Shown here piece by piece: positions 1 to 19,462 of a DNA stretch of 19,462 bases; the first letter of the stretch is position 1, and every line of letters starts with the position of its first letter. Both the position numbers and the translations under genes were made by a program. Under the pieces are notes generated by a model that saw nothing but the letters and a program-made list of their open reading frames with translations, was not told where the DNA came from and did no database searches. The stretch is from Candidatus Bathyarchaeota archaeon (GTDB lineage: Archaea > Thermoproteota > Bathyarchaeia > 40CM-2-53-6): positions 1 through 19,462 of the forward strand of contig CAWHWX010000011.1 in the NCBI GenBank assembly GCA_963833125.1. Direction: 5' to 3'.

Positions 1-559
1 CGCGGGCTCGGCGCACTCAAGATGCGGACTCTCGAAGTGATATGTTTCCTTATTCTCCGCCGCCGGTGGATTGATGGGGCAAACCCACCCCTCCTGCATA
101 TCACTGGAACCTGGGGCGTGGAGTAGCCGTAAGTATTGTTTGTTCCGTAGGGTTGTCTCCACTGTTGGTGGATGAGAGAACGTAAGGCCGAGCAGTCGCT
201 GAATCGGTGTGAGTTGTCTCGGGCGAGTCGATGTGTCTTGGATTCGCGAGTTAATGAGGCCGCCTTCGACCGACTAACCGCCTGTATATTCTACCATCTC
301 GGGGTAACTGACGGGATGTCCGGGAGTTTAGAGACGTACAAGGGATTGACTCCTGAACCTTTGAAGGATGCCGAATGGCGAACCACGCTGCGAAGCTACT
401 TACATTCCGAGTCGCGCACTACGGCAGCCACGCTCAAACGTAGAACCCGCAGCCCCGAATAATCGAACAGGAGTTCAGCGCGGCTGTCCATAGGACAAAA
501 ACGACAACGCAAAGCAAGCAAGTGAGAACAATCGATCGCAGTTTTTCGAGACTGAGGTG

Positions 560-611
560 TGGCGCCGGGAGAGGGAGCTGAACTAACGGTTCAACATACC
601 CACACCCACCA
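560..611. repeat. Back-to-back tRNA-3'-end-like element, copy A
   Basis: Minus strand 583->560 reads GTTCAGCTCCCTCTCCCGGCGCCA, 24 nt matching tRNA positions 53-76 with G73, Ser-like. Plus strand 588-611 reads GGTTCAA-catacccaca-CCCACCA. No tRNA 5' half is present. Confidence 0.7.
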
Positions 612-669
612 CGCACTTGTGCTGCTTTATAGGAAACAGAAGTTCAAGATCGGGTAACCATGAAACGAA

Positions 670-1851
670 TTGGTGGCCGTAGTTGAGGAAGGAGAGTCGT
701 TTTCTTCTAGACTCATCTTCAGGGCCTCTTTCACGCTTGCTCTCATAATCTTGCCAACACTTCATGGCTTCTTTGCAACAGCACAGGTGCGAGCGTGTAA
801 GATCTTGCCACTTTCAGCTTTCGTGGGGAGGATTCAACAGCCCGCAAGGTATTGCTATTGATTCATCTGGAAACGTATACGTAGCGGACCAAGGGAGCAA
901 TCGTGTTGAGAAGTTCACTGGAACAGGCACTTACATTACACAGTGGGGTTCGAGCGGGGTTGGCAATGGCCACTTCTACGACCCGTATGGTGTTGCTGTG
1001 AATTCATCGGGGAATGTGTACGTCACCGACTATCTAAACAACCGCGTTCAAGTCTTCACCAGAACGGGCACTTATGTTACTCAATTTGGTTCAGGCTCCG
1101 GTTATTATGGAGGGTTTACAGGCCCAACCGGTATTGCCATCGACTCGTCCGGAAATGTGTACGTAGTTGACTTCTACTACGACCTTGTTCAGAAATTCGA
1201 CGACTCAGGACATTTCCTTTTTGTTTTTTGGGGGAGTGGCTCCAGTAATCACCGATTTAATGGTCCGGAATCCGTTGCGGTCGATTTGTCAGGTAACGTG
1301 TACGTAACTGACGGAGGAAATGATGAAGTTGTGAAGTTTACCAGTAAAGGGATCTTCGTAACTTATTGGGGTGAGTCTGGCTCTGGTAACGGGGAATTCC
1401 ACCATCCTCAAGGGGTCGCCGTTGATGCCTCGGGGAACGTTTACGTGACCGATACTGGGAACAATCGTGTTGGTCTTCAATGGTTCGGGCAGTTACCTTG
1501 CTCGATGGGGTTCTGAAGTTAGGGAACGACGATTTCGCCAGCCCGCAGGGTATTGCGGTGAATTCTCTTGGAGACGTGTACGTAGCTGAATTGATGTCGA
1601 ATCGGGTAGTGAGGTTTAGCGACTTGCCTGCCACCACAACAATCTCGTTAACAACCTCATCAAAAAGCACAAGTGAGTTTGGCACAACATCACTGGTTTC
1701 TGTGGAATCAATGACGATAGCGGCTGTCGTGATCGTGTTCTTCGTCGTTATTGGCGTAATCTTCTTTGCCCTAAAGAGAAGAGCTCGTTGGGGATTCAAG
1801 GACAACTTCCCTTCTCGGCAGCTTGGTCCAAACGAATGCACAAGTCAATAG
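670..1851 (+). CDS. NHL-repeat (beta-propeller) cell-surface protein with signal peptide, Ser/Thr linker and C-terminal TM anchor; frameshifted
   Basis: About six repeats of F..P.GIAVDSSGNVYV.D..N.RV.KF in ORFs 764-1516 and 1480-1851. Hydrophobic N-terminus in ORF 670-861. C-terminal IAAVVIVFFVVIGVIFFALKRR. Frameshifts near 800 and 1475-1510. Confidence 0.9.
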
Positions 1852-2053
1852 CGAGTATGATTCGGGTAATAATCTTCCATGTGCGAAGAGTTAGACCTTT
1901 AGCGGAAACAAGGATACGGAGTGAGAGAATAGTGAGTAAAAGATAATTACAGAAGTCATCATAAAGCAGAGCAAGCTGGCAGCTTCCGTTGAGTGGATCC
2001 CCACAAACACAATGGAGTATTAATCTAGGCGAAGCATTGCTGGAGGAGCGTAA

Positions 2054-2221
2054 ACGGGAGAAACAGAGCCAACTATCTGCAAGATTTGCCATAAGAATCC
2101 GGCGGAATTTTCGGGCTATTGTGGCGATTGTTATTCGAAGCTAAAAAGTGATAAGAAAACGAAGAACGTCACGAAACAGAAGTTTTGGTTGTTTTCATTC
2201 TTCCATCTGTTTGATACTTAG
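2054..2221 (+). CDS. Small CxxC-x9-CxxC zinc-finger protein (55 aa); start codon reads ACG
   Basis: Translates as (M)GETEPTICKICHKNPAEFSGYCGDCYSKLKSDKKTKNVTKQKFWLFSFFHLFDT*. GGAGG at 2042-2046 lies 7 nt upstream, with TATA-like tattaat near 2018. Not in the ORF track. Confidence 0.55.
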   Translation, partial: TGETEPTICKICHKNPAEFSGYCGDCYSKLKSDKKTKNVTKQKFWLFSFFHLFDT

Positions 2222-2275
2222 ATTTGTGGACGAATCGCTTCCTTTGAGATATGCGAAGATTACTACTCCGACCTC

Positions 2276-3220
2276 TCACCTGGGGTTCTCTTCACTTTTC
2301 TCCGAAAAAGAAAAGCCGCAGTCGCAGCCACTATCACAGCCATGGCGGTCAGAAGAATTCGTTCTTTCTCCGCAGGCTTGATGGTTCAGCGCCGCTTCTT
2401 CCTGAGCGGTTTTCCATGCGTTGTACTGGTAGGCTACAAGCGCTAGACCCGCAGTTTCCCGAGTTTGCTTCCCTGTTTGAAGTCATATTGCCAAGGTAAA
2501 GGCTCGGATCCCACCATCTTCACGTTGAAACTGCCATATTCGAGCTTCAAGCTCCGGTCGGTAGGGTATAGTCTGGTTGAGTTTGTCGGCTGCATACATG
2601 AGCAGAGCCAGCTTGTAGATGCTGTAGAAACCATCTTGCTGCGTTGGCCAATCCCATAACCCCGCCCCATTCCACATCTGCAAGGCTTGGTTGAAGTAGT
2701 AGTCCGAGCGCCAGTAGTCGCCGGTGCTCTGCGCTTCAATGCTCCGTAACAAAGCAAATCCGCATAGCGAACCCAGTCTGGTTGAAACTTACCCGCCCCG
2801 TTACCTCTCGCTTCAGCCTGCACGAGGAACGAGTCGTTCTCGACAACCTTGACGATGGGTGTGTAGGGTGGGAATTGAATTACCATGCCGAATAGGGCTT
2901 CATGTAAACCATCCGTGAAAATTCCGTACTTCTGCATGGTTTGAATAATCCGCGCCGTTATGTTCGGGTAGTCTGCTGCTAGAACGTGCGTTGCGATGAG
3001 ATTGTCGGATAGAAGCCAGTAATGCTGTGTGAATGGCTTATCAGGGTGATTCCCTCACCAACCCCACAGTGCCGTTGAATTGTGCCGCCAAGAAATCTTC
3101 AAGCCTCAGAGCCAGTCTGCAAATCCGAGGGCGCTGAAGTCGCGCTGAGCCTGGGCTGGAGAATTATCAAAAGCAGCAGCAGTACGAATCCTGCCGTTTC
3201 CTACAGTACTCTCCACCCAT
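2276..3220 (-). CDS. Secreted, membrane-anchored hypothetical protein, possible (alpha/alpha) barrel / glycosidase-like fold; frameshifted
   Basis: Stitched frames give GFVLLLLLIILQP (signal), FNGTVGLVRESP, YWLLSDNLIA, YADLLCYGAL, MWNGAGLWD, YSIYKLALL, WQFQREDGGI and a C-terminal hydrophobic ILLTAMAVIVAATAAF. The fold assignment is inference. Confidence 0.7.
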
Positions 3221-3392
3221 TGGAAGTAAGCCTCGAAATAGTATACTACACCTTTGACCGTCAGCCGTTAATATCTCAATATTCGAGCAAGGATAATTCG
3301 CTGAAAGAAGAGTCAGTTTGCAATGTTGGAATTACACCGACATATGCAATATACTACGTAGAAATGGTCGCTCTTAGCGATGAAGTGTGTTG

Positions 3393-3829
3393 TGGAAGTG
3401 ACTTAGTGGGTAGGTTTGCTTTGGACTTACTCGCCAAGATAGGTTGATCCAGCATTCGTATGATGTCTGAAACCGCACTGACGAAAGGTGTCGTTACTCC
3501 CGGGGCGTAGCTTAGGACTACGACAAGTTTCTTGACTCTCAAGAATACCAGAGAGGACCTTCTCATACCTAACCGTCACTGAGTCCAACCCATCAAGAAC
3601 CCCTTGAAGCCTCTCCGCAGGCGTCGACGAGAATGGGCGGCATAAGTTGAATGAACCTGCGGTCGTCTTCCTCAGCAGATACGCTCTGGACTCCTTCTTT
3701 CATCTTCAAGAGGATCTATGAAACTGGTTGTCTACAATGCCTACGTACCGAAGCCTGTCGTCCCGCTTGAAGGCCTCCGACGCGAACTTCTCGGGAGCCA
3801 GCGGCGCCTTCAGTGACTGGAAGTGACTT
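3393..3829 (+). repeat. 12-bp direct repeat TGGAAGTGACTT (3393-3404 and 3818-3829) flanking a one-gene insert
   Basis: Exact 12-mer seen at both positions, 425 bp apart. Confidence 0.75.
3427..3812 (-). CDS. Roadblock/LC7-like (DUF6659-like) small protein; frameshifted
   Basis: Stitched: APEKFASEAFKRDDRLRYVGIVDNQFH..KMKEGVQSVSAEEDDRRFIQLMPPILVDA.ERLQGVLDGLDSVTVRYEKVL.VFLRVKKLVVVLSYAPGVTTPF. RYVGIVD and VRYEKV resemble this TACK family from memory. Confidence 0.7.
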
Positions 3830-4164
3830 CATTCAAGTCTTCATTTTTACAGGTTCGAGTTGCAGAAATCTCATGTCGGGATTATTCACCAACGCAGATG
3901 GTTCCGGGATTTACATGGTCACGCTACTTGGAGGGCTGAGTGCTGGCACATATGGCCCATGCGTCCGATCCTGCCTTGGGAGAGAAGAAGCAGCTGCGTC
4001 GACCCGCACAGTTGTCCCAGGTACACCTCCGCCTATCCGTGAATATCCGTTTGGACTATCAATTCTCACGATCCTCATCATAATTGGGTACGGTTTCGTT
4101 AAACACCAAAACACGAAACCATTCTAACAACTAGTCTTTCACATTATGGACTTGAACTCAATTA

Positions 4165-4215
4165 GGGTCAGAGTCGGAGCGATTTGAACCGAAAGGGTCA
4201 GGAATGAGTAAACCA
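4165..4215. repeat. Degenerate tRNA-3'-end-like element, copy D
   Basis: Minus strand 4190->4165 reads GGTTCAAATCGCTCCGACTCTGACCC. The plus strand follows with GGGTCAGGAATGAGTAAACCA, resembling the GTCAGAA arm variant. Confidence 0.45.
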
Positions 4216-4271
4216 GGTGTAATGAGATTTGCCGTCCACTCTTACTTAACGATAGATTCTGGAGCATTAAT

Positions 4272-4694
4272 CTACAAGGTTCTCATGCGGTTATTTTTCG
4301 GGTTATGTTCTACTTCTGCTAATCCTAATGCTTCCATTACGGGCGGCACATACATTCCAAATCGTCCCCGTCCCCTTTCTTCAAGCCATACCAACCACCA
4401 ACGGAGTTCTTGGGTGAACGTGCCCATGCCTCAACAGTTCCCTCCTCGCGGGCTTTTGTTCATCTGCGCTCCCTAGCTCCATCCAATCGCCATGTTTCTT
4501 GAGCATGGCTGGTAGGTCTTCTAGGCAGCGTAGATTGTAGCGAAGTTCTGTTGATCCGACTTTACACACCAAGGCAGGTGGAGTCAGTGTTTCGTCACGA
4601 TATGCGGTGAACTCTGATGTTCCTGGAGGTGTCTTGAGAACCCAGGGATTTTCATTCATCCGTTTCCTTTTGTCTTTGCTTTTGACATGGCCAT
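4272..4694 (-). CDS. DUF6855 family protein; frameshifted
   Basis: PWVLKTPPGTSEF, LGSADEQKPA, GTVEAWARSPKNSVGGWYGLKKG and RGRFGMYVPPVMEALGLAEVEHNPKNNRMR recovered across frames. Confidence 0.85.
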
Positions 4695-4742
4695 CGTGTC
4701 GAAACGTACCGTTAAAGAGGTTTCCCTGGACTCTCCAGCGTT

Positions 4743-4817
4743 CAGCGATGGGACAGGGGATTCTGACCCCAATTTACCGGTACATATAACCCGGTTCAAA
4801 TTTGGTTTTGCGCACCA
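4743..4817. repeat. Back-to-back tRNA-3'-end-like element, copy E
   Basis: Plus strand 4793-4817 reads GGTTCAA-atttggttttg-CGCACCA. Minus strand 4770->4745 reads GGGGTCAGAATCCCCTGTCCCATCGC (GGGG/CCCC T-stem, 7-nt loop, Ser-like acceptor strand). Confidence 0.7.
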
Positions 4818-4836
4818 GCCTAACCACACACGAAAG

Positions 4837-5670
4837 TTACGCCCGATATTCATTGAAGTCACATACTTGCTCGTACCCAACACGCTGATAGACGGTTAGA
4901 AATCGGATTCGCTAGGTTAGTAAATAGACAGCAGAACTGTTTCCCAGAATCAAGCATCAATTGACTTAAAGTCGCAACGCAAACAGTCGCGTAACCTTTC
5001 TGCCGCAGTTCGGGTGGAGTCTACACGAGACTAATCCTTACTCCGTGGCTAGTTGGACTGCCCCATGCAGCAATTGAGCACAAGCCCTTATCCTCCCAAA
5101 CATAGAGACGACGATCAGCCAGCAAAAGCTGAAACGTCTTCGATGCGTCTCCCTCCGTTTGTGGTTCTCCAATGTCAGCGTTGAAATTGTGAATCCAACG
5201 CACAAAATATTCGCATCACTGTTAGCTACTAAACGAATGCGACCGTTGACAGTTGGTGGAGGAATAACTTGTCGAAGCTGGTATAGTCGCAGCGAACGAT
5301 GTGCTCGAAAAGGCCGACCCGTTTTGTCCGTCCACAGTTCGTTGAAAGCTTGAGCCGTCTCAGTGGGTCCGTTCACGCCTGGAAGATGAATCTTCTTAGT
5401 CAGCATCTGATCTACAATTTCCACCAGGGCGTCTCTCTTAGCTCGGGTCAGAACAAGGTTGTGTGGAGGGGTCATCATGGCAGCTGCTTGCACCTTACCG
5501 TTCTCTTCTACGGTGATGAAGTACGGGGGCTGTTCGATTCGTTCGGGATGGGCTGCCAAAACCGAACTGATACCGAGTAGAAGAGTGTTCTCCGCTTCGA
5601 ATGCTTCCAAGAAAGTAGCGCACGTTGAAGGAATCTAGCAGGGTCACTGTCAAGATACAGCATTATTCAT
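4837..5670 (-). CDS. GNAT family N-acetyltransferase (two-domain type); frameshifted
   Basis: EAENTLLLG, LPGVNGP, GVRISLV.TPPELRQKGYATVCVATLSQ (acetyl-CoA motif A) and CCLFTNLANPISN..YQRVGY. Confidence 0.9.
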
Positions 5671-5746
5671 GGACCTTTCAGCCGAGTTACTGCGTTTTAA
5701 CGTAATCAGCGAATGAAGTTTTCGGTAATTGTGGGGGTGGTACCAC

Positions 5747-5808
5747 TGGTGCGCACACACACTTTCTGACGGCTTATGACGACGGTTCAAATTCAGTCGC
5801 ACGCACCA
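5747..5808. repeat. Back-to-back tRNA-3'-end-like element, copy B (perfect TGGTGCG/CGCACCA termini)
   Basis: TGGTGCG-cacacacact-TTCTGAC (24-nt left arm), 13-nt spacer, then GGTTCAA-attcagtcgca-CGCACCA. Followed by aactacggtcaagggctaacgc at 5826-5847. Confidence 0.75.
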
Positions 5809-5853
5809 CTAGAACCAACAACAAAAACTACGGTCAAGGGCTAACGCTAGCAA

Positions 5854-6084
5854 AACAAGGTGGAATGCATGAACGGAGAAATCCGCGATCGGAACGAGTA
5901 ATGCAAACCCTAGAGAAACCAGACACACCGATCCTTTTAGGTATGCAAATCTTCCACAACTACGTTCGACCACACGAGACTTTGAATGGTAAAGACTCCG
6001 AGCGAGGCTCCGGCAATCAACGTGGAGGCCGGAGATAAATGGCTAAGCTTGATTCGCAATGCTAGCCGTAAGGTTGCAAAATAA
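5854..6084 (+). mobile_element. C-terminal remnant of a DDE-type integrase/transposase (IS6-like archaeal group)
   Basis: Stitched NKVECMNGEIRDR.RVMQTLEKPDTPILLGMQIFHNYVRPHETLNGK.TPSEA..INVE.GDKWLSLIRNAS, with the typical HNxxRPHxxLxGxTP tail. No N-terminal or catalytic portion. Confidence 0.85.
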
Positions 6085-6126
6085 TAATTGGCTGGTAGAA
6101 TCCAGTGATACCAGTGTCGCTGCAGT

Positions 6127-6424
6127 TCATTCGTGTAGTTCGTCTAATCTGAATTCTGTCTTCTTCAAAACCTGGTCATAAGAGCGCTTGCTTCTGTTGT
6201 GCGCTTCTCTAGTTCAATTGAGTCTTGTTGCAGCTGAATGCGTTCGATTGGCCAAGAGCCATCCTGGAGGAAGTTTTTCGAATGCTTTTGTGAGCAGCAA
6301 GTCGCTCGCTCCTCGCGGATTCTAATTTCCAAATAATAACAGTAATAATGAAAGATGATATTGAAAAATAAAGAAGCGACAGAAAAATAATTTCTATTTC
6401 TAAACTGGTCAATTCAAGTCGCAT
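6127..6424 (-). CDS. Small single-TM hypothetical protein, AT-rich 5' end
   Basis: ORF 6209-6424 has an N-terminal TM (IIFLSLLYFSISSFIITVIIW). It probably continues after a frameshift to EAHNRSKRSYDQVLKKTEFRLDELHE*. Confidence 0.4.
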
Positions 6425-6535
6425 AATCTAAGGAAGTAGGATGGCAACTGTTATCTATGCTCAACGCAGCTACTAAAAGTGAAATTCGTTTGTCAGAGAG
6501 GGAATGGGCTAAAGAACGTGGGGAGAGCGTGGAGG

Positions 6536-6718
6536 GTGTCGCGAATAGAGTGCGCTTCGTTGAATCTTGGTGACTCACGTCAACAACATGTCAAGAACAA
6601 AGAGGACTTGGTAGTAATCGCTTCGATTCTGCACAAGCCAGTCATTAAGCATGAAAATAGGTACTACGTCTTAGATGACGCGATCACGTATACACACCGT
6701 CCGTTAAGCAAAGCTTAA
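6536..6718 (+). CDS. Small hypothetical protein
   Basis: Protein-like part of ORF 6479-6718 (VKNKEDLVVIASILHKPVIKHENRYYVLDDAITY). Purine-rich RBS-like sequence precedes a GTG at 6536; start uncertain. Confidence 0.45.
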   Translation: MSRIECASLNLGDSRQQHVKNKEDLVVIASILHKPVIKHENRYYVLDDAITYTHRPLSKA

Positions 6719-6798
6719 GACTGTTTTGAGTTGCCGGAATTCTGAATTATAGTTAGCCATTTATCTTTTCCTTGAACTTTGATGGCCGCGGCTTCTGT
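6715..6798 (-). mobile_element. Second, shorter C-terminal remnant of the same transposase family
   Basis: TEAAAIKVQGKDKWLTIIQNS aligns with SEA..INVE.GDKWLSLIRNA of the 5854-6084 remnant. Confidence 0.75.
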
Positions 6799-6812
6799 GT
6801 GTGTGGGTCTCA

Positions 6813-6918
6813 TGGTGCGAGCATCGGTGATTGAACCTTTGTTGTTAATCGTTTGAAAAGTGTGTGTGAGATTTTTGGTGCGCAAAAAAAGAACTACGGT
6901 ATGAGCTAACGCAGACCA
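6813..6918. repeat. tRNA-3'-end-like element copy C (inverted relative to B) plus adjacent partial copy C'
   Basis: Minus strand 6837->6813 reads GGTTCAA-tcaccgatgct-CGCACCA, preceded by cacacacacttttcaaac (B has cacacacactttctgac). Second TGGTGCG at 6876-6882. aactacggtatgagctaacgc at 6892-6912 matches 5826-5847. Confidence 0.7.
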
Positions 6919-7027
6919 TTCTCTGTGGGGTCTAAGGCAATGATTCAATCTCTAGTTCTGATACTTCGACACTTGCGATGATCGCCTTTCGTAGAGGGTT
7001 TCCCTAGACTAGACAATCACCCATTAC

Positions 7028-7114
7028 TTACCACATTCTCACGTAACCGCATTCGCATTCCTCTCCCTGTTTCAGCGATCTTTTCAAACATCGAGGACAA
7101 AGCTGCTCTCCCAA
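7028..7114 (-). CDS. 28-aa zinc-ribbon microprotein (CPxC...CxCG)
   Basis: TTG start, MGEQLCPRCLKRSLKQGEECECGYVRMW*. Below the ORF-track cutoff. Confidence 0.55.
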   Translation of the reverse strand: MGEQLCPRCLKRSLKQGEECECGYVRMW

Positions 7115-7125
7115 TTACAACTCAC

Positions 7126-7224
7126 TTACCCCGACGAGAGGCCGAAGTGACATTCACAAATTCTAGCCTCTTGCAGGCTGAGTTTCGCCTCGCAGCAGCC
7201 AGACGCCTTTATGGATTCGGACAC
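7126..7224 (-). CDS. 32-aa Cys-rich microprotein
   Basis: GTG start with GGGAG upstream, MSESIKASGCCEAKLSLQEARICECHFGLSSG*. Ends 11 nt before the next micro-ORF. Confidence 0.35.
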   Translation of the reverse strand: MSESIKASGCCEAKLSLQEARICECHFGLSSG

Positions 7225-7304
7225 TGTTGATCTCCCACGATCTCACGCCTAACCGACCATACCTATGAAGAACCATCCACCCCCACACTGTCAACAACAT
7301 GGGC

Positions 7305-9008: not shown

Positions 9009-9245
9009 CATGTTCTTTCTTTTAGCTTGCATTCTGGATTAGAGTCAACCACGACACGCTAAAGATACATAACATTTGCAGGCTCAGCACTCAAGATCCA
9101 TCTCACAGTAAGGTCGATTGGGCCAGACTCGTCATCGCCCGCCCCGATCATTTCCTCTTACGTGCTAATTTGCGTATCTGACTTGCATGCTTATTTCGCC
9201 GTAGCCTACTCTCGTGCCAACCACGAAAGTTGAAAGTGCGGAGAT

Positions 9246-10219
9246 ATGCCCATTATTCATGTCACGCCAGTGGGCTTCGAAAGCCTGGGCGTCAGGTCCA
9301 TGTGTACCTTTGTTGAGACGCCCGACGTTAGGATACTGATTGACGCGGGCGTAGCGTTGGGGCCTCGTCTTAGGAGGTTACCGCACCCGCGAGAGTACAA
9401 GGCTCGAAATGAATGCCGTGCAAGAATTCGAAACTACGCGGCGAAGGCAGATGCGATTGTAATCTCACACTATCACAATGACCACCATACACCAAACTAC
9501 ACGGAAAACGTCTGGCTCGGATCGAGTGCAGATGAAGCGGAAGAGATCTATCGCGAAAAAACTGTTCTGCAAAGGATATTCGTAACGCAATAAACTTCAA
9601 CCAGCGGAGGAGGGGCTGGATGTTTCAACGCTTCGTGAAACGGATCGGCAGTAAGTGTGAGATAGCTGACGGTAAAATGTTTGACTTTGGAGCAACCAAG
9701 ATCACGCTCTCGCAGCCTGTGCCTCATGGAGAGGAGAGTTCCGGCTTGGGGTGGGTCCTTATGACTTGCGTTAGGTCAGGAGAGGAAACTTTCCTGCACG
9801 CTTCCGACGTTCAAGGACCGATGTCCAAGGAAACGGCCAAACTGATACTTGAAGGGAAGCCAGACTGTCTTGTGCTTGGAGGCCCACCCACGTATCTCGA
9901 AGGGGTGAGAGTGGCTCAAGCGCCGATTCAGGCAGGCATCGAGAACGCCTCTAGACTTGCAAGTAAGATACCAATCATAATCTTTGAACATCACATACTC
10001 CGCTCCGAAAAATGGAGGGAGCAATCAAACTCGGTATATGATGCCGCCTCAAGCGCCGAGCATAAGGTCATGACTGCGGCTGAATACCTCAAAACCCCAA
10101 ACATGCTTCTAGAGTCTCAGCGGGAGCAGTTGTATGAGGAAGAGGCTCCATCGCCAGAGTTCATGAAATGGACTGAGCTTCATCGAGAGAAAAAACGGTT
10201 ACAGCCTCCTCCAGTCTAG
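9246..10219 (+). CDS. UPF0282 family MBL-fold metallo-hydrolase; one frameshift near 9565
   Basis: ESLGVRSMCTFVETPD, IDAGVALGP, ISHYHNDH, PVPHG, HASDVQGP, GGPPTYL and EHHILR. Confidence 0.92.
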
Positions 10220-10230
10220 GGCAGTTGACG

Positions 10231-10261
10231 GGGGAAAAGACCGGACCCGAAAAAGGGTCCG
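10231..10261 (-). terminator. Hairpin plus pyrimidine tract downstream of the Cren7-like gene
   Basis: CGGACCC/GGGTCCG stem (10242-10261) followed on the minus strand by gtcttttcccc. Lies between convergent genes. Confidence 0.65.
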
Positions 10262-10278
10262 CAAAGGATCTGATCGGA

Positions 10279-10440
10279 TTAGGCGCCTGCCAGCTTTGTC
10301 GCCAGTCGGAATTTCTTTCCACATGATGGGCAGGAGAAGTGTTTGATGTGTAGGGCGGGGCCACGTCCGTCCTTTGGATGCATATCCCATTCTTTCGCTG
10401 GGCCAATTACTTCGCCACCGCATTTGAGACATTTCACCAA
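10279..10440 (-). CDS. Cren7-like small basic zinc-ribbon protein (putative chromatin protein)
   Basis: (M)VKCLKCGGEVIGPAKEWDMHPKDGRGPALHIKHFSCPSCGKKFRLATK follows the Cren7 pattern P.K.W...PK.....I..F..P..GK.FR, plus two CxxC. RBS GAGGTGA at 10454->10448. Confidence 0.75.
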   Translation of the reverse strand: MVKCLKCGGEVIGPAKEWDMHPKDGRGPALHIKHFSCPSCGKKFRLATKLAGA

Positions 10441-10465
10441 GAAGTCTTCACCTCGATGGGGTCGG

Positions 10466-10584
10466 CAGTCGGATGTTGGACACGAGGTGCGGAGCACGTT
10501 TGATGGTGACGCCACTTGGGTTTGGCTTGGGGGTGTGGCGTCATTGGGTGCGTGTTATCCTCGTGTCCAACGACGCTGACTGCC
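10466..10584 (-). ncRNA. Long nested hairpin forming the 5' leader of the Cren7-like gene (candidate cis-regulatory RNA)
   Basis: Nested stems GGCAGTC/GACTGCC, GTTGGACACGAGG/CCTCGTGTCCAAC (13 bp), CACG/CGTG and TGACGCCAC/GTGGCGTCA. Lies between the TATA box and the RBS. Confidence 0.7.
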
Positions 10585-10608
10585 ATGGACGGTCCATACA
10601 CTTTTGAT

Positions 10609-10646
10609 GGTATATTAATGTTTCATTTATGGTACGTTAATATACC
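10609..10646. promoter_or_regulatory. Symmetric bidirectional promoter (two opposed TTAATATA boxes)
   Basis: GGTATATTAA (10609-10618) and TTAATATACC (10637-10646) form a perfect 10-bp inverted repeat between divergent genes. Confidence 0.65.
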
Positions 10647-10688
10647 GCCGTGACTAATCTCTCTTAGAAATTTAGAGGAGGTTGCAAT

Positions 10689-10847
10689 ATGAACGGAGAT
10701 TCAAAGCGAAGCTTTGCTGTAGCCCTTGCTTCATTCGCGATAGGCGCCGTAGTCGCCGGAGTACTCGGAAACCCGAGAACACGTCAGCGTATCGCTGTCG
10801 CGAGCAAGAAGCTGGCTAAGAGAGCTAAGGCAGCTGACCTAGCGTAA
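10689..10847 (+). CDS. 52-aa single-TM protein with basic amphipathic tail (YtxH-like architecture)
   Basis: MNGDSKRSFAVALASFAIGAVVAGVLGNPRTRQRIAVASKKLAKRAKAADLA*. Strong RBS GAGGAGGT, own TATA box and downstream hairpin. Not in the ORF track. Confidence 0.75.
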   Translation: MNGDSKRSFAVALASFAIGAVVAGVLGNPRTRQRIAVASKKLAKRAKAADLA

Positions 10848-10859
10848 ACAACCCACACG

Positions 10860-10892
10860 GGGGCGGTAAACAAACCGCTCCTTTCCTCTCAT
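10860..10892 (+). terminator. Hairpin plus pyrimidine tract
   Basis: GGGGCGGT-aaacaa-ACCGCTCC followed by tttcctctc. Confidence 0.55.
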
Positions 10893-11004
10893 TCTAAAGT
10901 TCGAGTCTGATCCTTTGTCGCCTTTTCCTGGGACAATCCTAAGGTGTTGGCCTCAGAAGGATTCTAGGAAAGCTTAATTCTCAATCCGAATTACCATTGG
11001 AATC

Positions 11005-11068
11005 AGGGCGCGTGAGTGGGGCCTCCCACCCGATTGCGCCAAAGAAACCCCGGAGTAGGGAGGTAATT
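11005..11068 (+). ncRNA. Structured 5' leader of queT; candidate riboswitch or K-turn-containing cis-regulatory RNA
   Basis: GGCGCG/TGCGCC outer stem, GTGGG/CCCAC inner stem, A-rich linker AAAGAAA then CCCC. Anti-SD CCTCCC (11022-11027) complements SD GGGAGG (11058-11063). BRE/TATA-like gaaagcttaatt at ~10968-10979. Confidence 0.5.
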
Positions 11069-11070
11069 AG

Positions 11071-11607
11071 ATGAAAGCTAAGAGTTCAATCAATATCGCA
11101 TTGACCGCAGTATTCGCCGCAATTTACGCCCTAGGCGTAGTATTTCTTGCCCCAATCAGTTTTCAAATCTTCCAAGTTAGAGTAGCAGATGCCCTGCTGC
11201 CTCTCGCTATGCTATTCGGTTGGCCTGCCGTTCTAGGACTATCACTAGGTGCTTTCGTTGCAAACATATTCGGAGGCCTTGGGCCAGTCGATATGGTTGG
11301 AGGTTCAGTAGCGAATTTCATAGCGACGTTCCTCGCCTGGCGATTGGTAGCCAGCAGGGGAAGGCGTTGGGCGTTGGTTGGAGTTGGGGCAGAGATTGTT
11401 ATCGTCACGCTCGTGGTTGGATCCTACTTGAGCTACCTACTCGCTATGCCGATAGAAATCAGCTGGCTAGGGGTCTTCCTAGGAAGCGTAATCGCAATTG
11501 GAGTGCTCGGATCGATACTGTTCTTTGCACTCTCAACTGAAAGAGTTTCAGCCCTGTTGAGATCATACGGTCTAGGAATCTACACGCAGCGGCCCGAGAA
11601 AAAGTAG
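11071..11607 (+). CDS. queT: QueT transporter family protein (ECF S-component for 7-deazaguanine precursors)
   Basis: AVFAAIY..LAPISF..FQVRVADALLPL..GLSLGAFVANIFG..GPVDMVGGS, the QueT signature. Multi-TM. Confidence 0.9.
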   Translation: MKAKSSINIALTAVFAAIYALGVVFLAPISFQIFQVRVADALLPLAMLFGWPAVLGLSLGAFVANIFGGLGPVDMVGGSVANFIATFLAWRLVASRGRRWALVGVGAEIVIVTLVVGSYLSYLLAMPIEISWLGVFLGSVIAIGVLGSILFFALSTERVSALLRSYGLGIYTQRPEKK

Positions 11608-11629
11608 GATAATTGGCTTCGAGTATTCA

Positions 11630-12274
11630 CTACTTCGCTCGAGAGCCGATGCGCGAGGTTTTCGAGAGTAGGGTATTCGAATCGCGTGCGAGCTTCCGCA
11701 TGATTCGGATTGGTGGAGGCGCAGGTGGACGGCCTCGCAAGACCATTCGATCAATCCAAAGAGTCGTGGGTGGTTCGATATTCGGCTGCCACAACATTGC
11801 CTCTACTTCGCCAAGGTGGAGTAGGTGCTCCGTCGTGCACTGCGCTAGGGCTGCCTCGCGAGTTACTTTCAGAGGGTGCCCGAGCCGAACCCAACGGACG
11901 ACTTTCTGAAGCGCTCGGTCGTTGTCCCATCGTGACAAGTATTCTTCGGACAGGTCTGTGATGCTGCGCAAACGCTCTCGGACGGAGTCAATGTCGTTGT
12001 ACCGTCGCCTTGACAGTTGAGCTGAGAAACTAGGCCACGGCGCTGCTCGGCCTTGGCAGAATTTCGTGATGTGATGCTCCTCGATGTAGGCGAGATGGAG
12101 AAATAGATTTCGGAACGAGTTGAGGCTGACTTCGCGGTTCCGCGTAGATTCCTTCCAACCAAGACTCGCGGCGGTCTCAAAGAAATCGCCTCGTAGGTCG
12201 TGCACAAATCGCAATAGGGCGATAATGTTGACCTTCGTTCGGAGAGTTGGGCTGTCGGAGTTTTTCCCAGTCAA
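11630..12274 (-). CDS. DinB/YfiT-like family protein
   Basis: SFRNLFLHLAYIEEHH and EHLLHLGE metal-binding His motifs of the DinB four-helix bundle. Confidence 0.85.
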   Translation of the reverse strand: MTGKNSDSPTLRTKVNIIALLRFVHDLRGDFFETAASLGWKESTRNREVSLNSFRNLFLHLAYIEEHHITKFCQGRAAPWPSFSAQLSRRRYNDIDSVRERLRSITDLSEEYLSRWDNDRALQKVVRWVRLGHPLKVTREAALAQCTTEHLLHLGEVEAMLWQPNIEPPTTLWIDRMVLRGRPPAPPPIRIMRKLARDSNTLLSKTSRIGSRAK

Positions 12275-12392
12275 GGCTCATATGCTCCAGCGCTAATTGG
12301 TGCGCCAATGATAATTAGCTGTTTTCGCTTCGGTAGAATGTTGAGATACGGAATCGATAGAGTTTGAACCAAGTCTGATCAGTGTTGGTCCC

Positions 12393-12920
12393 GTTGAGAG
12401 GTAGTTTCCAATCGCAACCATTCAACTGATCCTTGGTGACATCACAGGGCAGAGGGTAGACGCAATCGTGAACGCTGCGAATACAAGTCTGCTCGGCGGC
12501 GGTGGTGTGGATGGAGCGATTCATCGAGCTGCGGGTCCTAGACTGCTTGAGGAATGCCGCAAGCTGGGAGGTTGTCCAACTGGTCAAGCGAAAATAACCA
12601 CGGGAGGTAATTTACTCGCTAAATTTGTCATTCATACCGTGGGCCCGATCTGGAGAGGGGGCGGGAATCAGGAAGATCAACAGCTACGTGCCTGCTACTT
12701 GAATTCTATGAAAGTCGCAGAGCAGAATGGGGTTCGATCAATCGCGTTCCCATCAATTAGCACCGGCGCTTATGGATTCCCGGTTGAGAGCGCCTCAAAA
12801 ATCGCTGTAGCCACCGTCCGCGAATCTCTCGATAAAACACCCCACGTTCAAACCGTTCTCTTCGTATGTTTTTCCCAATCCGACTATGAAGTTTACCAAG
12901 AAGCGCTCAAGGCGGAATAA
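12393..12920 (+). CDS. Macro domain protein (O-acetyl-ADP-ribose deacetylase / ADP-ribosylhydrolase, YmdB-like)
   Basis: LILGDITGQRVDAIVNAANTSLLGGGGVDGAIHRAAG, VIHTVGPIW and AFPSISTGAYGFP. The frame is open upstream of 12468 to ~12404; the true start is obscured by a probable error. Confidence 0.95.
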
Positions 12921-12938
12921 GTTCGCGAGATCTGCGGG

Positions 12939-13729
12939 CTAAGAGTTTAGTTCGGCTTTGAAGACTGTTACCGCCTTGCCGCCGATGAAAACTCTCCTGT
13001 CCCCCACTCTAACCCGGATTACACCGCCTCGCCTCGAAGCCTGGTAGGCTAAGAGTTCACTCTTGTGAAGCCTGGATTGCCAGAACGGTCCCAAGACTGA
13101 GTGGGCGGATCCTGTTACTGGGTCTTCATTGATTCCTGCTCGGGGGGCGAAGAAGCGGCTGACGAAGTCGTATGGTTCTGTTTTTGCTTTGGCGGTTACG
13201 ATGAGTCCGCGGATGGGAAGTTTGGAGAGCAAGGTCAAGTCGGGTTTCATGTTGCGAACAGAATTCTCTGAACTGACTTCGACAATAGAATCGAACCTGC
13301 TTCTTCCCATGTACCTGGGCTTGACTCCAAGTGCCTTTGACAATCCTTTGGGAACCTTAACTTGTCTGTCAGGAAGGGATGGGAAATCAAGTTCGATCCA
13401 TTCGTCTCGCCGTTTGGCGGTTAGGAGGCCACTATGCGTGTGAAACCTGGCCTGATCCTCTATGCCTAGTAATCCGGTTTCCCAGAGGATATGAGCACTG
13501 GCGAGGGTTGCGTGTCCACACAGGTCAACCTCGACTAACGGCGTGAACCAGCGCAAACCATGGCCGTCCTCCCTCTTATGGAGGAATGCCGTTTCGGACA
13601 GGTTCATTTCTTGAGCTACCTTCTGCATCCACCCCTCACTACGGGTTCCTGCAGGATGCATACGGCGGCTGGGTTGCCGGCAAATACCGTATCCGTGAAG
13701 GCGTCAACGTGAAAGATCGTCAGGACCAT
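12939..13729 (-). CDS. PhzF family isomerase/epimerase; one frameshift near 13650
   Basis: MVLTIFHVDAFTDTVFAGNPAAVC, EMNLSETAF, LRWFTP.VEVDLCGHATLA and EDPVTGSAH. Confidence 0.95.
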
Positions 13730-13849
13730 ATTCTCGGGGATAAGGATGCGGGCGTATAACCTTTGATTCCATTTCTGGTCATGGTAAGCTGCCGTTGCCC
13801 CTGAAAACAGTGCCGCATTGGGTAAACCATGGATGTTTGAAAAAGAATG

Positions 13850-14714
13850 CTATCTGCTTGAGCGATCATATTTTCTTAGAACATTTGGAATGGCCTCAGT
13901 AAGGTCGGAGGCGACCATGTGGAATCCTTTCTGTTCGTAAACGATGTCCCCCGCCGCGCCATGAATGTACGCTCCCGCTACAGCTGCGGAGAATAGTTCG
14001 GCACCTTGTGCGAGAAAAGCCCCGATTATTCCTGATAAAACGTCGCCAGCTCCGGCGGTAGCCATTCCAGGATTCCCAGTATGGTTAACCTTCGCTGGCT
14101 TCCGTCTGTAACAATAGTGTCGTGTCCTTTCAGGAGAAGCACGCAACCATGTTCCTTGGCGAAATTCTTGCAAATAGGCAACCTATCCCGCCACAGTTGA
14201 GGCGCTTCCACACCGGAGATTGCCTTGAACTCACCCGCGTGAGGTGTGATAAGAACGCCTTTGAGCGATTCCTTTGCGTCAGCGAGCGTTCGGATGGCGT
14301 CGGCGTCAATTAGGAGTAACTTGCTTAGCTTGCGCTTCCTTGATGATCAGCGGTAACGCTTGAATAGTTTCGGCGTGACGTCCGATTCCGGGACCTAACA
14401 CAACGGCATCAGAGGCTGCAAGTAACCCAGAGAGTTGGTCGATCTGCTCAGGATTGACTACGTCGCCGCGCAGTGAATGTACAATGAGGTTTGGGGAATA
14501 TCCACGAATGGTCGGAGCAACGGATCTCGGTGCGGCAATGATCGTCAGGCCTACTCCGGTTCTGAGAGCGGCCATTCCGGCTAAGGCTGGAGCGCCAGAA
14601 TAGACATCACTACCCCCTATGATTAGCAAGCATCCGAAATCTCTCTTAGACGCATACCGGCCTCTCGCCTTGACTACGCCTCTAACGTCTCCAGGGCCAG
14701 AATACAAGATCCAT
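13850..14714 (-). CDS. nnrD: ADP/ATP-dependent NAD(P)H-hydrate dehydratase (YjeF C-terminal domain), stand-alone; frameshifted
   Basis: [51 protein letters not shown] and [16 protein letters not shown]. Confidence 0.92.
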
Positions 14715-14843
14715 CCCCACGGTTGACTTGCACCGTATGTAGACGCCGCTTACTTCTGCCTTGCCTCTTAGAGTAACTCATCTCTACCGACGGAACACAA
14801 AAAACGGTGTTCTCACCACAATTCGACGAGGCGTATCGCGGAG

Positions 14844-16562: not shown

Positions 16563-16628
16563 ATAAGTGAAAGAATTCTCCAAAGTTTTATATTCCAAAC
16601 GGACTAATCCGACTCTGAGGCAACCTCA

Positions 16629-16995
16629 GTGGACATTAGTCGGCACGATCATTCACCTAGTAATCGCTGGTATCATCGGCGGAATTTTCGTCTGGCTCGC
16701 CGCAAAAGCACTGGGCGCACCTCGGGCGTCATACTGGCACGGCATTTTGACGGTTGTCTGTGCGATCATACTCACCGATATCATAGGCTATTTCATCGGC
16801 GGGTTAGGGATGGATTACAACAATCATCGAAATCGTCATAATCCTACTGCTTGATCAAGCACTTCTTCGGTGTTGGCTGGATTAAGGCGAGTTGTAATCG
16901 CAATACTTGCTGTGATCATACTGATCATAGTGCTCTTCGTACTAGCGGCGATTGGAATCACAGTACTCGGCGGAATGTTCCCGGGCGTCCCATAG
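16629..16995 (+). CDS. Small 4-TM hypothetical membrane protein; frameshifted
   Basis: Stitched LVGTIIHLVIAGIIGGIFVWLAAKALG...LIKHFFGVGWIKA.VIAILAVIILIIVLFVLAAIGITVLGGMFPGVP*. GAGG RBS upstream. Confidence 0.7.
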
Positions 16996-17042
16996 GCTGG
17001 ATAGTGGAGAAAGCGACGACTCGGCGCTCCCGTACTGGGACC

Positions 17043-17327
17043 TCAAAGCTGAGATGTAGAGCTAGCCGGTAACGCGTAAGCTGACTCTACAGATTCCTGA
17101 CTTCGAAACTTAGCATTCTTCCGGCGGGCGAATCGTCGTCCCACCACGATGAAACTCCCTAACACTAAGCCGGCCAGTACTGATTCTGGGGGAAAGCCTG
17201 GTATTGCAACCACCATGACGTTTCCTCTACCCTGCATGATCAAGAAAATTATGACTACTAGCGATATGAGGCTCAGGAGCGAGATTACCAGCAAAATGAT
17301 GCCTACAGGACCCTCTGTCGCGAACAA
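17043..17327 (-). CDS. Small membrane protein with IPGFP (PGF-CTERM-like) motif, TM and basic tail
   Basis: Long N-terminal hydrophobic stretch, then AIPGFPPESVLAGLVLGSFIVVGRRFARRK. Confidence 0.65.
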   Translation of the reverse strand: MFATEGPVGIILLVISLLSLISLVVIIFLIMQGRGNVMVVAIPGFPPESVLAGLVLGSFIVVGRRFARRKNAKFRSQESVESAYALPASSTSQL

Positions 17328-17562
17328 CCACTACCATGTTTTCCACCGATTAGCAGCATCTGTGAAGATTGGACGGTAAGGACTTTTCGTTGCCACAAGA
17401 GATGGACAAGGGCAAACACCACCCACTGCAACTATTGCAGTAGGTTGAACAACCAACTTTTACACGGCAAGACAACCCCCCCAATATTCGTCGCGCAACA
17501 TGAAATCCTCTTGAACTCACTTGGTAGAGGGGCTGGTCTGGAGGTCGTTTCTTTGCCTTTTG

Positions 17563-18264: not shown

Positions 18265-18361
18265 TGCGATCGAATTATCATACTTCTAATTGACCTAATA
18301 GTCTAGGCAATAGAACATGGTCGCATCACTGTTCTAATTCATAGTACCTATCATCTGAGGC

Positions 18362-19356: not shown

Positions 19357-19462
19357 TATTTAACATCCGCATAAGTATCGCGTCTGTCGGCATCACATCC
19401 AGCAGACATCTCCGGCTAGTCTTCAGCGTTTTCCATCAGAAATTTGGAAGGGAGCTACATCT

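What the first reader, a model, noticed from the sequence alone, without database searches (positions are those of the whole stretch)
560..6918. Family of back-to-back tRNA-3'-end-like sites separating single-gene cassettes: possible integron-like or tRNA-derived recombination system
Seen: three intergenic copies of GGTTCAA-N11-CGCACCA with identical spacing but unrelated N11 (4793-4817 +, 5784-5808 +, 6813-6837 -). There is also an N10 variant (588-611 +) and a decayed copy (4165-4190 -). Most have a second, outward-facing arm 4-25 nt away, giving ~50-75 bp imperfect inverted repeats with a variable centre. All lie between genes and bracket DUF6855 and the GNAT one gene at a time. I found none in the core-like region right of ~7 kb. 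Established: this spacing equals tRNA positions 52-76 (T loop to CCA), ...CGCACCA is the usual end of archaeal tRNA-Leu, and archaeal tyrosine integrases use tRNA 3' halves as att sites, normally leaving single direct copies. Inference: paired divergent arms that keep only the T-loop and ACCA boxes look like protein-recognition boxes of a cassette-shuffling site, analogous to integron attC but tRNA-derived. No recombinase is present in this window.
Basis: partly seen in the sequence, partly recalled or inferred. Interest (0 to 1): 0.85.

Follow-up and report, generated by a model that had tools for sequence, protein, structure and literature searches.

The report
tRNA-end-like repeats bounding archaeal gene cassettes
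Short repeats that mimic the end of a glycine tRNA gene sit between accessory genes in a group of soil archaea and mark where genes are swapped between strains, a possible cassette-exchange system whose enzyme is not yet known.

Summary
The sites are real and not chance: 4 pattern matches against 0.01 expected.

They belong to a lineage-wide family of ~45-bp intergenic units:
- Each unit has three conserved boxes (GGTTCAAAT, CGCACCA, a CA-run) separated by variable segments (227 units).
- Copy number is 64-73 per genome.
- The family occurs in two genera whose relatives are titled Bathyarchaeia (17/22 and 10/10 genomes). It was not found in a sister genus (0/22).
- The prototype is the 3' end plus trailer of the real tRNA-Gly(GCC) gene.

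The units cluster in variable islands, about one per intergenic gap. They flank single genes of diverse function.

Units behave as synteny breakpoints:
- In 67 of 75 informative units the two flanks have separate fates in other genomes.
- No empty site was seen.
- Strain variants replace cassettes exactly at units.

No recombinase is linked, and one copy-rich genome has no detectable tyrosine recombinase. Unit orientation relative to genes is random, unlike integrons.

Verdict: the observation largely holds. The cassette-junction reading is partly supported. The enzyme and the mechanism (site-specific or homology-driven) remain open.

The parts
2..23 (+). Left copy (with a 1-nt insertion) of a ~21-nt direct repeat that bounds the ~9-kb variable island
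   Evidence: The same repeat is exact at both ends of the non-homologous island in the second haplotype (C16:426465 and C16:436222).
560..583 (-). 3'-end fragment (T-loop to CCA) of a different real tRNA, standing head-to-head with the next part
   Evidence: Sequence. The matching real tRNA 3' ends are listed (C19:109139, C21:14798).
588..611 (+). T-loop-like box followed by a CA-rich stretch. Homology to the other haplotype ends at 594.
764..1851 (+). NHL-repeat gene, frameshifted; cargo of the island
   Evidence: PF01436 on both pieces
4148..4189 (.). Member of a separate small repeat family with two T-loop-like boxes.
4384..4659 (-). DUF6855 fragment (92 aa against a 132-position profile); cassette cargo
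4747..4791 (-). Decayed reversed 3' fragment of tRNA-Gly(CCC) plus a conserved element-end arm. Together they look like the attR of an element family that integrates into tRNA-Gly(CCC).
4792..4835 (+). Family unit with all three boxes
4840..5634 (-). GNAT-like gene broken over three frames; cassette cargo
   Evidence: motifs recognised by eye, from recall. There was no Pfam hit on the 190-aa ORF.
5726..5760 (-). Family unit of the hairpin-capable type. It is the divergent partner of the next unit.
5781..5826 (+). Family unit whose CA-run is decayed
5866..6084 (+). Frameshifted C-terminal remnant of an IS6-like (DDE_Tnp_IS240) transposase, cut off about 45 nt after the unit
6795..6837 (-). Family unit with all three boxes
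6860..6890 (-). Degenerate unit in tandem with the previous one
   Evidence: (6862-6882) and the sequence
9078..9098 (+). Right, diverged copy of the direct repeat. From here the window is 95% identical to the second haplotype.

Best explanation
The sites are copies of a lineage-specific family of ~45-bp DNA units. The units resemble the attachment site formed by the 3' end of the tRNA-Gly(GCC) gene (T-loop box, acceptor end and CCA) plus its 18-nt trailer.

Shown:
- The units lie almost only between genes.
- They concentrate in about a dozen variable islands per genome, roughly one per gap.
- They are the places where synteny breaks between strains and species, so the genes between them behave as independently inherited cassettes.

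Inferred:
- The units are recombination sites. A recombinase acting in trans recognises the conserved boxes and exchanges DNA in or beside the CGCACCA box. It is probably an integrase of the kind that targets tRNA 3' ends and is only sporadically present on mobile elements.
- As a result a cassette keeps the CA-run half of a unit at one end, and in some cases the T-loop half at the other.
- Tandem ~60-nt units would then be empty cassettes.
- The enzyme has not been identified.
For: Family and non-chance:
- 4 matches in the window against 0.01 expected.
- 64 copies in this genome. Another genome has 63 matches to the core pattern with up to 2 mismatches, while the reversed control pattern gives 0.

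Box-wise conservation:
- In 227 units, model positions 1-13, 22-28 and 35-44 are mostly at least 90% conserved.
- Positions 14-17, 20-21 and 29-34 carry about 0.15-1.0 bit.
- Variable parts differ between copies, with a modal difference of 7 of 12 positions.

Prototype:
- An intron-bearing tRNA-Gly(GCC) gene ends in a full unit and is followed by tandem units.

Location:
- 60 of 64 copies lie outside ORFs of 90 aa or more that cover 72% of the genome.

Junction behaviour:
- 75 of 222 units were informative. In 11 both flanks are found but in different places, and in 56 only one flank is found.
- In 8 both flanks are found together, and 7 of these are near-identical haplotypes of the same assembly. 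No empty site was seen.
- 19 of 231 homology-block ends lie within 30 nt of a unit, against 4.75 expected for random placement in the same loci.

Worked cases:
- Contig C29 against C18: a segment is replaced between the CA-run of the tRNA unit and the start of the third unit.
- One membrane-protein cassette occurs in three genomes. It keeps the T-loop half of its unit, and homology stops at the CGCA|CCA point.
- Another cassette occurs in three contexts. It keeps the CCA-to-CA-run half, while the T-loop half differs.
- C39 against C32: the break falls at the T-loop box.

Other support:
- Each gene of an 8-kb island maps to a different place in relatives.
- Cargo is diverse, and one cargo protein pair is unique to 1 of 59 genomes.
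- Closely adjacent units are never convergent (0 of 48), which argues for a polar process.
- An element with an integrase next to tRNA-Gly(CCC) has a family unit in direct orientation about 4.4 kb away.
Against: - No recombinase is linked. The window has none.
- One genome that is 98% complete has 33 copies but no PF00589 match at all.
- In a 3-contig genome the three integrases are not adjacent to any of the ~12 clusters. The nearest lies about 20 kb from one.
- The integrase found beside tRNA-Gly(CCC) occurs in only 5 of 23 genomes at 63% identity or more, plus a 141-residue partial match (51% identity) in a sixth. It is absent from this genome.
- Breakpoints are not at one fixed position. 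They fall at the T-loop box, at the CGCACCA box and in or after the CA-run. This fits homology-driven exchange as well.
- Units flank cassettes in inverted orientation more often than in direct orientation (50 against 37 of 87). Simple integration of circles does not predict that.
- Several strain-level replacements involve no unit.
- For three of the four genomes compared, only the islands were available as search targets, so 'one flank only' partly reflects sampling.
Confidence: 0.4

Rival explanations
1. The units are portable homology patches. They are old dispersed repeats with no dedicated enzyme. Ordinary homologous or microhomology-mediated recombination between units, on incoming DNA or within the genome, swaps the genes between them.
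For: - Breakpoints fall at several positions inside the units, always in or beside conserved boxes.
- No linked recombinase was found, and one copy-rich genome has no tyrosine recombinase.
- At least one deletion elsewhere uses 5-nt microhomology.
Against: - The shared boxes are only 7-13 nt long, which is short for efficient homologous exchange.
- Box-wise conservation over 227 copies and two genera needs a selective cause.
- Convergent adjacent pairs are missing (0 of 48), which symmetric homologous exchange does not predict.
Confidence: 0.2
2. The units are ordinary decayed attachment-site scars, left by serial integration of integrase-bearing elements into tRNA genes and then scattered by rearrangement. 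They have no present function.
For: - The island holds reversed 3' fragments of two other tRNAs (560-583 and 4747-4763) and an attR-like arm.
- The prototype unit is a real tRNA-Gly(GCC) end with tandem copies behind it.
- In thaumarchaea, 57% of integrated elements sit in tRNA genes (PMC6563490, passages read).
Against: - Neutral scars should decay evenly, but the boxes stay at least 90% conserved while the spacers are free.
- There are 60-70 copies in about 12 clusters, most far from any tRNA-Gly gene and in both orientations.
- The family persists in two genera.
Confidence: 0.15
3. The units are a MITE- or REP-like selfish repeat that transposes into intergenic DNA. Divergent pairs or hairpin-type units, with TG...CA ends, would be the mobile form. 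The cassette pattern would be a by-product.
For: - 15 of 48 adjacent pairs form ~100-nt inverted composites with TG...CA outer ends, and 56 of 227 units are small palindromes.
- IS6-like DDE transposase genes occur in 20 of 28 genomes that have the repeat, against 2 of 31 that lack it. All 17 genomes with at least 10 exact copies have one.
Against: - No empty site was found among 75 informative units.
- No target-site duplication was seen.
- There are few near-identical copies and no sign of a burst.
- None of 10 IS6-like loci carries a unit within 1.5 kb, and their candidate terminal repeats look different.
- A Y1 (REP-associated) transposase occurs in 1 of 23 genomes.
Confidence: 0.1
4. The units are cis-acting signals for gene expression or chromosome organisation. 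They could be binding sites of a lineage-specific DNA-binding protein, insulators or terminators for accessory genes. They would mark island genes without causing their exchange.
For: - Strict intergenic location, often 8-60 nt from start or stop codons.
- Box-wise conservation typical of protein-binding sites.
- An analogy exists in the promoter-bearing intergenic repeats of halovirus HF2 (PMC8707807; only the title and the start of the abstract were seen, in the listing).
Against: - There is no orientation preference toward gene starts or ends. The CA side faces 34 starts and 29 ends, and the T-loop side faces 20 starts and 25 ends (tallied).
- Five species of the same genus, and a sister genus (0 of 22), had no exact match.
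- Breakpoints lie inside the units, not merely between genes.
Confidence: 0.1

Closest known systems
Integron attC arrays, including clusters of attC sites lacking an integrase (CALINs)
   Same: - Short sites with conserved boxes and a variable centre.
- About one site per mostly single-gene cassette.
- Cargo is functionally diverse and often of unknown function.
- Arrays differ between strains, with junctions at the sites.
- Arrays exist without a neighbouring integrase.
   Different: - No IntI, attI or Pc platform was found anywhere.
- The site sequence resembles a tRNA 3' end, not the R/L-box palindrome.
- Most units cannot fold into a hairpin (171 of 227).
- Units and genes lie in all relative orientations.
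- There are about 12 small clusters per genome.
tRNA-gene attachment sites of archaeal and bacterial tyrosine-integrase elements
   Same: - The unit equals tRNA positions ~52-76 plus trailer.
- A real tRNA-Gly(GCC) gene carries the prototype, with tandem copies behind it.
- Fragments of other tRNA 3' ends, and a tRNA-Gly(CCC)-integrating element with its integrase, occur in the same lineage.
   Different: - There are tens of copies away from tRNA genes, in both orientations.
- Each copy has its own variable segment rather than being an exact copy of the tRNA.
- No integrase lies within or beside the cassettes.
REP/BIME elements with RAYT transposases, and MITEs
   Same: - Intergenic location and tens of copies.
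- Occurrence as solo, tandem or inverted pairs.
- Restriction to a lineage.
   Different: - No RAYT-type Y1 transposase (1 of 23 genomes).
- No empty sites or target duplications were seen.
- Copies are concentrated in variable islands and coincide with synteny breaks.
IS26/IS6-type arrays of translocatable units
   Same: - Genes are separated by copies of one short element.
- At genome level the repeat co-occurs with IS6-like DDE transposase genes.
   Different: - The units are not the ends of the IS6-like genes examined (0 of 10 loci).
- The units are not in uniform direct orientation.

Membership tests
Integron | Integron integrase (a tyrosine recombinase) with attI and promoter next to the array | tested here: not met
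   There is no PF00589 match in the window's contig. The 3 integrases of a 3-contig relative are not adjacent to any of its ~12 clusters; the nearest lies about 20 kb from one. One relative with 33 copies has none at all.
Integron | attC: an imperfect palindrome with paired R and L boxes that folds as a single strand | tested here: not met
   Only 56 of 227 units carry a GT-run able to pair with the CA-run. No long-range covariation was found between the variable segments.
Integron | Cassettes of one promoterless ORF in a fixed orientation relative to the site | tested here: not met
   One ORF fills at least half of the gap in 54 of 87 gaps. All unit and gene orientation combinations occur without preference.
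Integron | Cassette content varies between strains, with junctions at the sites | tested here: met
MITE | Terminal inverted repeats with target-site duplication and presence/absence polymorphism | tested here: not met
   No empty site was found among 75 informative units. Inverted composites make up only 15 of 48 adjacent pairs. No duplication was seen at the junctions read.
MITE | Many near-identical copies from recent bursts | tested here: not met
   Within each genome the variable positions differ at a mode of 7 of 12. Few pairs differ at 1 position or fewer.
REP/BIME with RAYT | A Y1 (IS200/IS605-like) transposase gene in genomes that carry the repeat | tested here: not met
   PF01797 was found in 1 of 23 genomes of the genus and not in this genome.
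tRNA-gene att site of an integrative element | Sequence identity to the 3' part of a resident tRNA gene | tested here: inconclusive
   The T-loop box and the acceptor end plus CCA match tRNA-Gly(GCC), and the trailer matches too. Positions corresponding to tRNA 61-69 differ in nearly every copy.
tRNA-gene att site of an integrative element | Direct repeats flanking an element that encodes its integrase | tested here: not met
   Cargo of 20 cassettes shows no recombinase. One element beside tRNA-Gly(CCC) has a unit as a possible distal site, but four homologous elements do not.
CRISPR array | Near-identical repeats at regular spacing with unique spacers of fixed length | tested here: not met
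   Units differ from each other. Spacing ranges from about 10 nt to several kb, and the gaps hold genes.
tRNA-like RNA element (Rfam) | A conserved fold with paired acceptor and T stems | tested here: not met
   There is no Rfam match at E up to 1 in the window. ARAGORN finds no tRNA. No covariation was found.

The most novel reading that the evidence does not exclude
A gene-cassette exchange system native to a clade of Bathyarchaeia. Its recombination site is derived from the 3' end and trailer of tRNA-Gly(GCC). It is served in trans by a recombinase that is not a recognisable integron integrase, and possibly not a tyrosine recombinase at all. The system would build and reshuffle about a dozen small cassette arrays per genome and capture genes from outside the family.
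Probability: 0.3. Interest if true: 0.85.

Novelty: new variant of a known kind. Interest (0 to 1): 0.66.

Why it matters
Bathyarchaeia are abundant and uncultured, and their means of gene exchange are almost unknown.

If these units are active recombination sites, they would be a second, independently evolved cassette-capture system, built from a tRNA attachment site rather than an attC hairpin. They would also explain how accessory genes, some unique to one genome in 59, enter these genomes one at a time.

Even on the conservative reading, the family is useful in three ways:
- The units mark variable islands in these genomes.
- Contig ends coincide with units, so they may cause assembly breaks.
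- They offer a defined DNA substrate with which to look for the enzyme.

Tried and rejected
1. RNA reading. Rfam gave nothing in the window at E up to 1, ARAGORN found nothing, and there was no covariation. I dropped the idea of a tRNA-like RNA or 3'-processing signal.
2. Promoter or terminator reading. There is no orientation preference toward gene starts or ends.
3. IS6-like transposase as the source of the units. The window fragment at 5866-6084 and the copies on contig C4 are decayed. Intact homologues in relatives show no unit within 1.5 kb (0 of 10 loci) and no unit-like terminal repeats. Only the genome-level co-occurrence remains.
4. A recurrent unknown 357-aa protein in one island as a candidate enzyme. 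It and its paralogue (57% identity) occur in 1 of 59 genomes, so it is cargo.
5. An apparent 356-nt insertion carrying a unit turned out to be a microhomology deletion inside a gene in the other genome.
6. My early guess that the genome was a Nitrososphaera was wrong. Relatives with many copies are titled Bathyarchaeia.
7. Viral contigs gave 10 single matches. By my own rough estimate this is about the chance level. I did not follow them up.
8. Sequencing runs: none was listed for window 3800-7300 and no RNA holder was listed. Reads could therefore not be mined for circles or empty sites.
10. Literature searches found no description of this repeat. I read passages of PMC6563490. For all other papers I saw only the search listings.

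Full report
**The observation**

Shuffled sequence gives 0.01 matches. The window holds no tRNA gene, and nothing in it resembles an Rfam family at E up to 1.

The window is the whole of contig C11 of a 39-contig, 3.07-Mb assembly. Genome-wide the pattern matches 43 times. About two thirds of these are the 3' ends of real tRNA genes, which here encode CCA and mostly carry introns. About a dozen are not tRNA genes, and these resemble each other beyond the pattern.

**One repeat family**

An nhmmer model iterated from these copies finds 64 units in this genome at E up to 0.01. Across four genomes I aligned 227 units. A unit is about 45 bp long and has this layout:
- a T-loop box (GGTTCAAAT, preceded by GAC), present in about 136 of the 227 units;
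- a variable stretch of about 8 nt;
- the box CGCACCA, at least 95% conserved;
- a variable stretch of about 6 nt;
- a CA-run.

In 56 of the 227 units the first variable stretch is a GT-run that could pair with the CA-run. Apart from that I found no long-range covariation.

The window's units lie at 4792-4835 +, 5726-5760 -, 5781-5817 + and 6795-6837 -. A degenerate unit lies at 6862-6882 -.

- The N10 variant (588-611) is not recognised by the model.
- The 'decayed copy' at 4165-4190 belongs to another small repeat family.

**Origin of the unit**

The only real tRNA gene followed by the CA-run is an intron-bearing tRNA-Gly(GCC) on contig C18. Rfam tRNA scores it at 34.4 bits, and I read the anticodon from that alignment. 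Its last 25 bases plus 18 bases of trailer form a complete unit. A second unit follows in tandem and a third lies 0.8 kb further on. This is what a tRNA attachment site with repeated use would look like.

The window also carries other tRNA-related pieces:
- a reversed 3' fragment of another tRNA (560-583);
- a decayed reversed fragment of tRNA-Gly(CCC) (4747-4763);
- next to that, a conserved arm (4764-4791).

The same arm recurs next to real tRNA-Gly(CCC) genes that have an integrase 0.6 kb away in relatives. In two of those three cases the partner is a fragment of a different tRNA. The fourth match has a tandem partner.

**Distribution**

A core pattern (CGCACCA, six partly free bases, CCACACAC) with up to one mismatch occurs in 17 of 18 sampled genomes of the genus, at up to 61 copies. 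The reversed control pattern gives 0 everywhere.

An exact-match scan of 105 genomes of the order gave the following:

| Group | Genomes with a match |
|---|---|
| Own genus (excluding this genome) | 17 of 22 |
| Second genus of the same family | 10 of 10 |
| Third genus of the family | 0 of 22 |
| Two further genera of the family | 0 of 4 |
| Other families | 4 genomes, 1-2 matches each |

Five species of the own genus have no exact match, two of them at least 93% complete.

In the public genome collection, contigs with several matches are titled Candidatus Bathyarchaeia or Bathyarchaeota MAGs. Bacterial records carry mostly single matches, which I take to be chance. My early guess of Nitrososphaera was wrong.

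**Position and arrangement**

- 60 of 64 units lie outside ORFs of 90 aa or more that cover 72% of the genome.
- In a 3-contig relative, 63 copies fall into about 12 clusters.
- In an 8-kb stretch of another relative nearly every intergenic gap holds a unit, sometimes 8-16 nt from a start or stop codon.

There are 166 gaps between neighbouring units:

| Gap size | Count | Orientation of the two units |
|---|---|---|
| Under 150 nt | 48 | 33 tandem, 15 divergent, 0 convergent |
| 150-2500 nt | 87 | 36 with both CA-runs facing inward, 37 direct, 14 with both facing outward |
| Over 2500 nt | 31 | not analysed |

One ORF fills at least half of the gap in 54 of the 87 mid-sized gaps. Gene direction shows no preference relative to either side of a unit (my tally). 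This argues against a promoter or terminator, and also against the fixed polarity of integron cassettes.

Cargo is varied: GNAT, CMD, EamA, MFS, an amino-acid permease, arginase, UbiA, radical SAM, a DEAD helicase, KaiC-TPR, a phosphoesterase and proteins without a family. None of the 20 tested is a recombinase. One pair of cargo paralogues (57% identical) occurs in only 1 of 59 genomes of the family.

**Units as junctions**

1. The assembly contains strain variants. Contig C29 matches C18 at 92-98% around the tRNA-Gly(GCC) gene. The stretch between the CA-run of the tRNA unit and the start of the third unit is replaced by 1.4 kb of unrelated DNA with its own units.
2. A membrane-protein cassette is found in three genomes at 88-90% identity. 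It keeps the T-loop half and variable stretch of its downstream unit. Homology stops at or just before the CCA. Only one of the three contexts continues with the CA-run half.
3. A second cassette occurs in three contexts. It keeps the CCA-to-CA-run half of its upstream unit, while the T-loop half differs.
4. Between contigs C39 and C32 the break lies at the T-loop box.
5. Each gene of the 8-kb island maps to a different locus in relatives.
6. Of 231 distinct ends of between-genome homology blocks, 19 lie within 30 nt of a unit, against 4.75 expected for random positions in the same loci. Where a block abuts a unit, it lies on the CA-run side in 25 cases and on the T-loop side in 11.
7. I searched the 220-nt flanks of 222 units separately. 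75 units were informative:
   - 8 had both flanks together elsewhere, 7 of them being the near-identical haplotypes C6 and C18, with the unit kept;
   - 11 had the two flanks in different places;
   - 56 had only one flank;
   - none showed an empty site.

   For three of the four genomes only the islands were available as targets, so the 'one flank' class is partly a sampling effect.

**The window's own island**

Window 9078-19462 is 95% identical to C16:436222-446572, and window 2-76 matches C16:426465-426538. Between these anchors the two haplotypes share almost nothing (8.5 kb against 9.6 kb), the exception being a 40-nt match at 555-594.

In both haplotypes the island is bounded by a ~21-nt direct repeat. 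It is exact in C16 and diverged in the window.

The left break lies at 594, inside the T-loop-like box of the N10 site.

The window's version carries five units and decayed cargo: a frameshifted NHL gene, a DUF6855 fragment, a GNAT-like gene in three frames and an IS6-like transposase remnant. The C16 version has no unit (one search set).

The window's contig ends 44 nt before a unit in the C16 copy. This suggests that units break assemblies.

**The search for an enzyme**

- The window's contig has no tyrosine recombinase.
- The archaeal-type integrases of this genome lie next to other tRNA genes. A cluster of six recombinase-like ORFs at the start of C16 looks foreign in composition.
- A 98%-complete relative with 33 copies has no PF00589 match at all.
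- Y1 transposases occur in 1 of 23 genomes.
- The integrase beside tRNA-Gly(CCC) occurs in 5 of 23 genomes at 63% identity or more, plus a 141-residue partial match (51% identity) in a sixth. In one case a unit lies in direct orientation 4.4 kb from the tRNA end. In four others there is no such unit.
- IS6-like DDE genes track the repeat at genome level. They occur in 20 of 28 genomes with the repeat against 2 of 31 without, and in all 17 genomes with at least 10 exact copies. These genomes are kin, so the counts are not independent. None of 10 such loci carries a unit, and their candidate ends look different.

**Conclusion**

The sites are a real, conserved, lineage-specific family that resembles the tRNA-Gly(GCC) attachment site, and they mark the junctions of independently inherited small cassettes.

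I favour trans-acting site-specific recombination (0.4). My reasons are the box-wise conservation, the half-units that travel with cassettes, the absence of convergent neighbours and the tRNA-att prototype.

Homology-driven exchange between the units (0.2), plain att scars (0.15), a MITE-like repeat (0.1) and a regulatory site (0.1) remain possible.

The family fails the defining tests for an integron, a MITE, a REP/RAYT system and a CRISPR array. It works most like attC arrays without an integrase.

My searches of the held literature turned up no description of it. Supplementary files could not be seen.

Noticed in passing
whole assembly; e.g. contig C31 = C16:426514-436230, C2 and C3 = C16:88-107 kb, C6 and C29 = C18:121-129 kb: The assembly holds two or three strain variants of many regions at 88-98% identity. 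These gave natural close comparisons, but some 'copies' are haplotypes rather than paralogues.
   Followed up: partly
window 9081-9139 (-): There is a sub-threshold resemblance to archaeal C/D box sRNAs (14.9 bits, E 1.3). It overlaps the right copy of the island's direct repeat, so the island may have integrated into the end of a small RNA gene.
   Followed up: no
G000 contig C29:4620-6321: A 1.7-kb insertion with an NHL-repeat gene sits at the 5' end of the tRNA-Gly(GCC) gene. It is flanked by a 25-33-nt duplication of the tRNA 5' end and is absent from the C18 and C6 variants.
   Followed up: partly
window 4764-4791; also C9:3870, C14:44826, C14:50318, C14:12336, C1:81791, C1:85017: A second repeat family carries a TACCGGTA palindrome and a TATA-like stretch. 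The same arm follows real tRNA genes that have an integrase 0.6 kb away in relatives, so it looks like the end of an integrative element family.
   Followed up: partly
G000 contig C16:1-13000: Six tyrosine-recombinase-like ORFs lie in a row. They are arginine-rich and unlike the archaeal-type integrases of the genome. This may be a foreign element or a mis-binned piece.
   Followed up: no
genome-wide: tRNA genes encode CCA and most carry one or more introns. ARAGORN finds 7 tRNA genes without intron search and 30-31 with it, and tRNA-Gly(GCC) has two insertions in the Rfam alignment.
   Followed up: partly
L013 (G013:C12) 7055-7148: Another short repeat occurs in at least 5 copies at 86% identity in one relative (G003) and in several other genomes. 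It is unrelated to the family studied here.
   Followed up: no
L038 (G014:C1) 3017-4087 and 6075-7154: Two paralogous proteins of 357 and 360 aa (57% identity) have no Pfam family. Each lies in its own unit-flanked cassette, and they were found in 1 of 59 genomes of the family.
   Followed up: partly
family-wide: IS6-like DDE transposase genes (PF13610) are present in 20 of 28 genomes that carry the repeat and in 2 of 31 that do not, yet they are not physically linked to units.
   Followed up: partly
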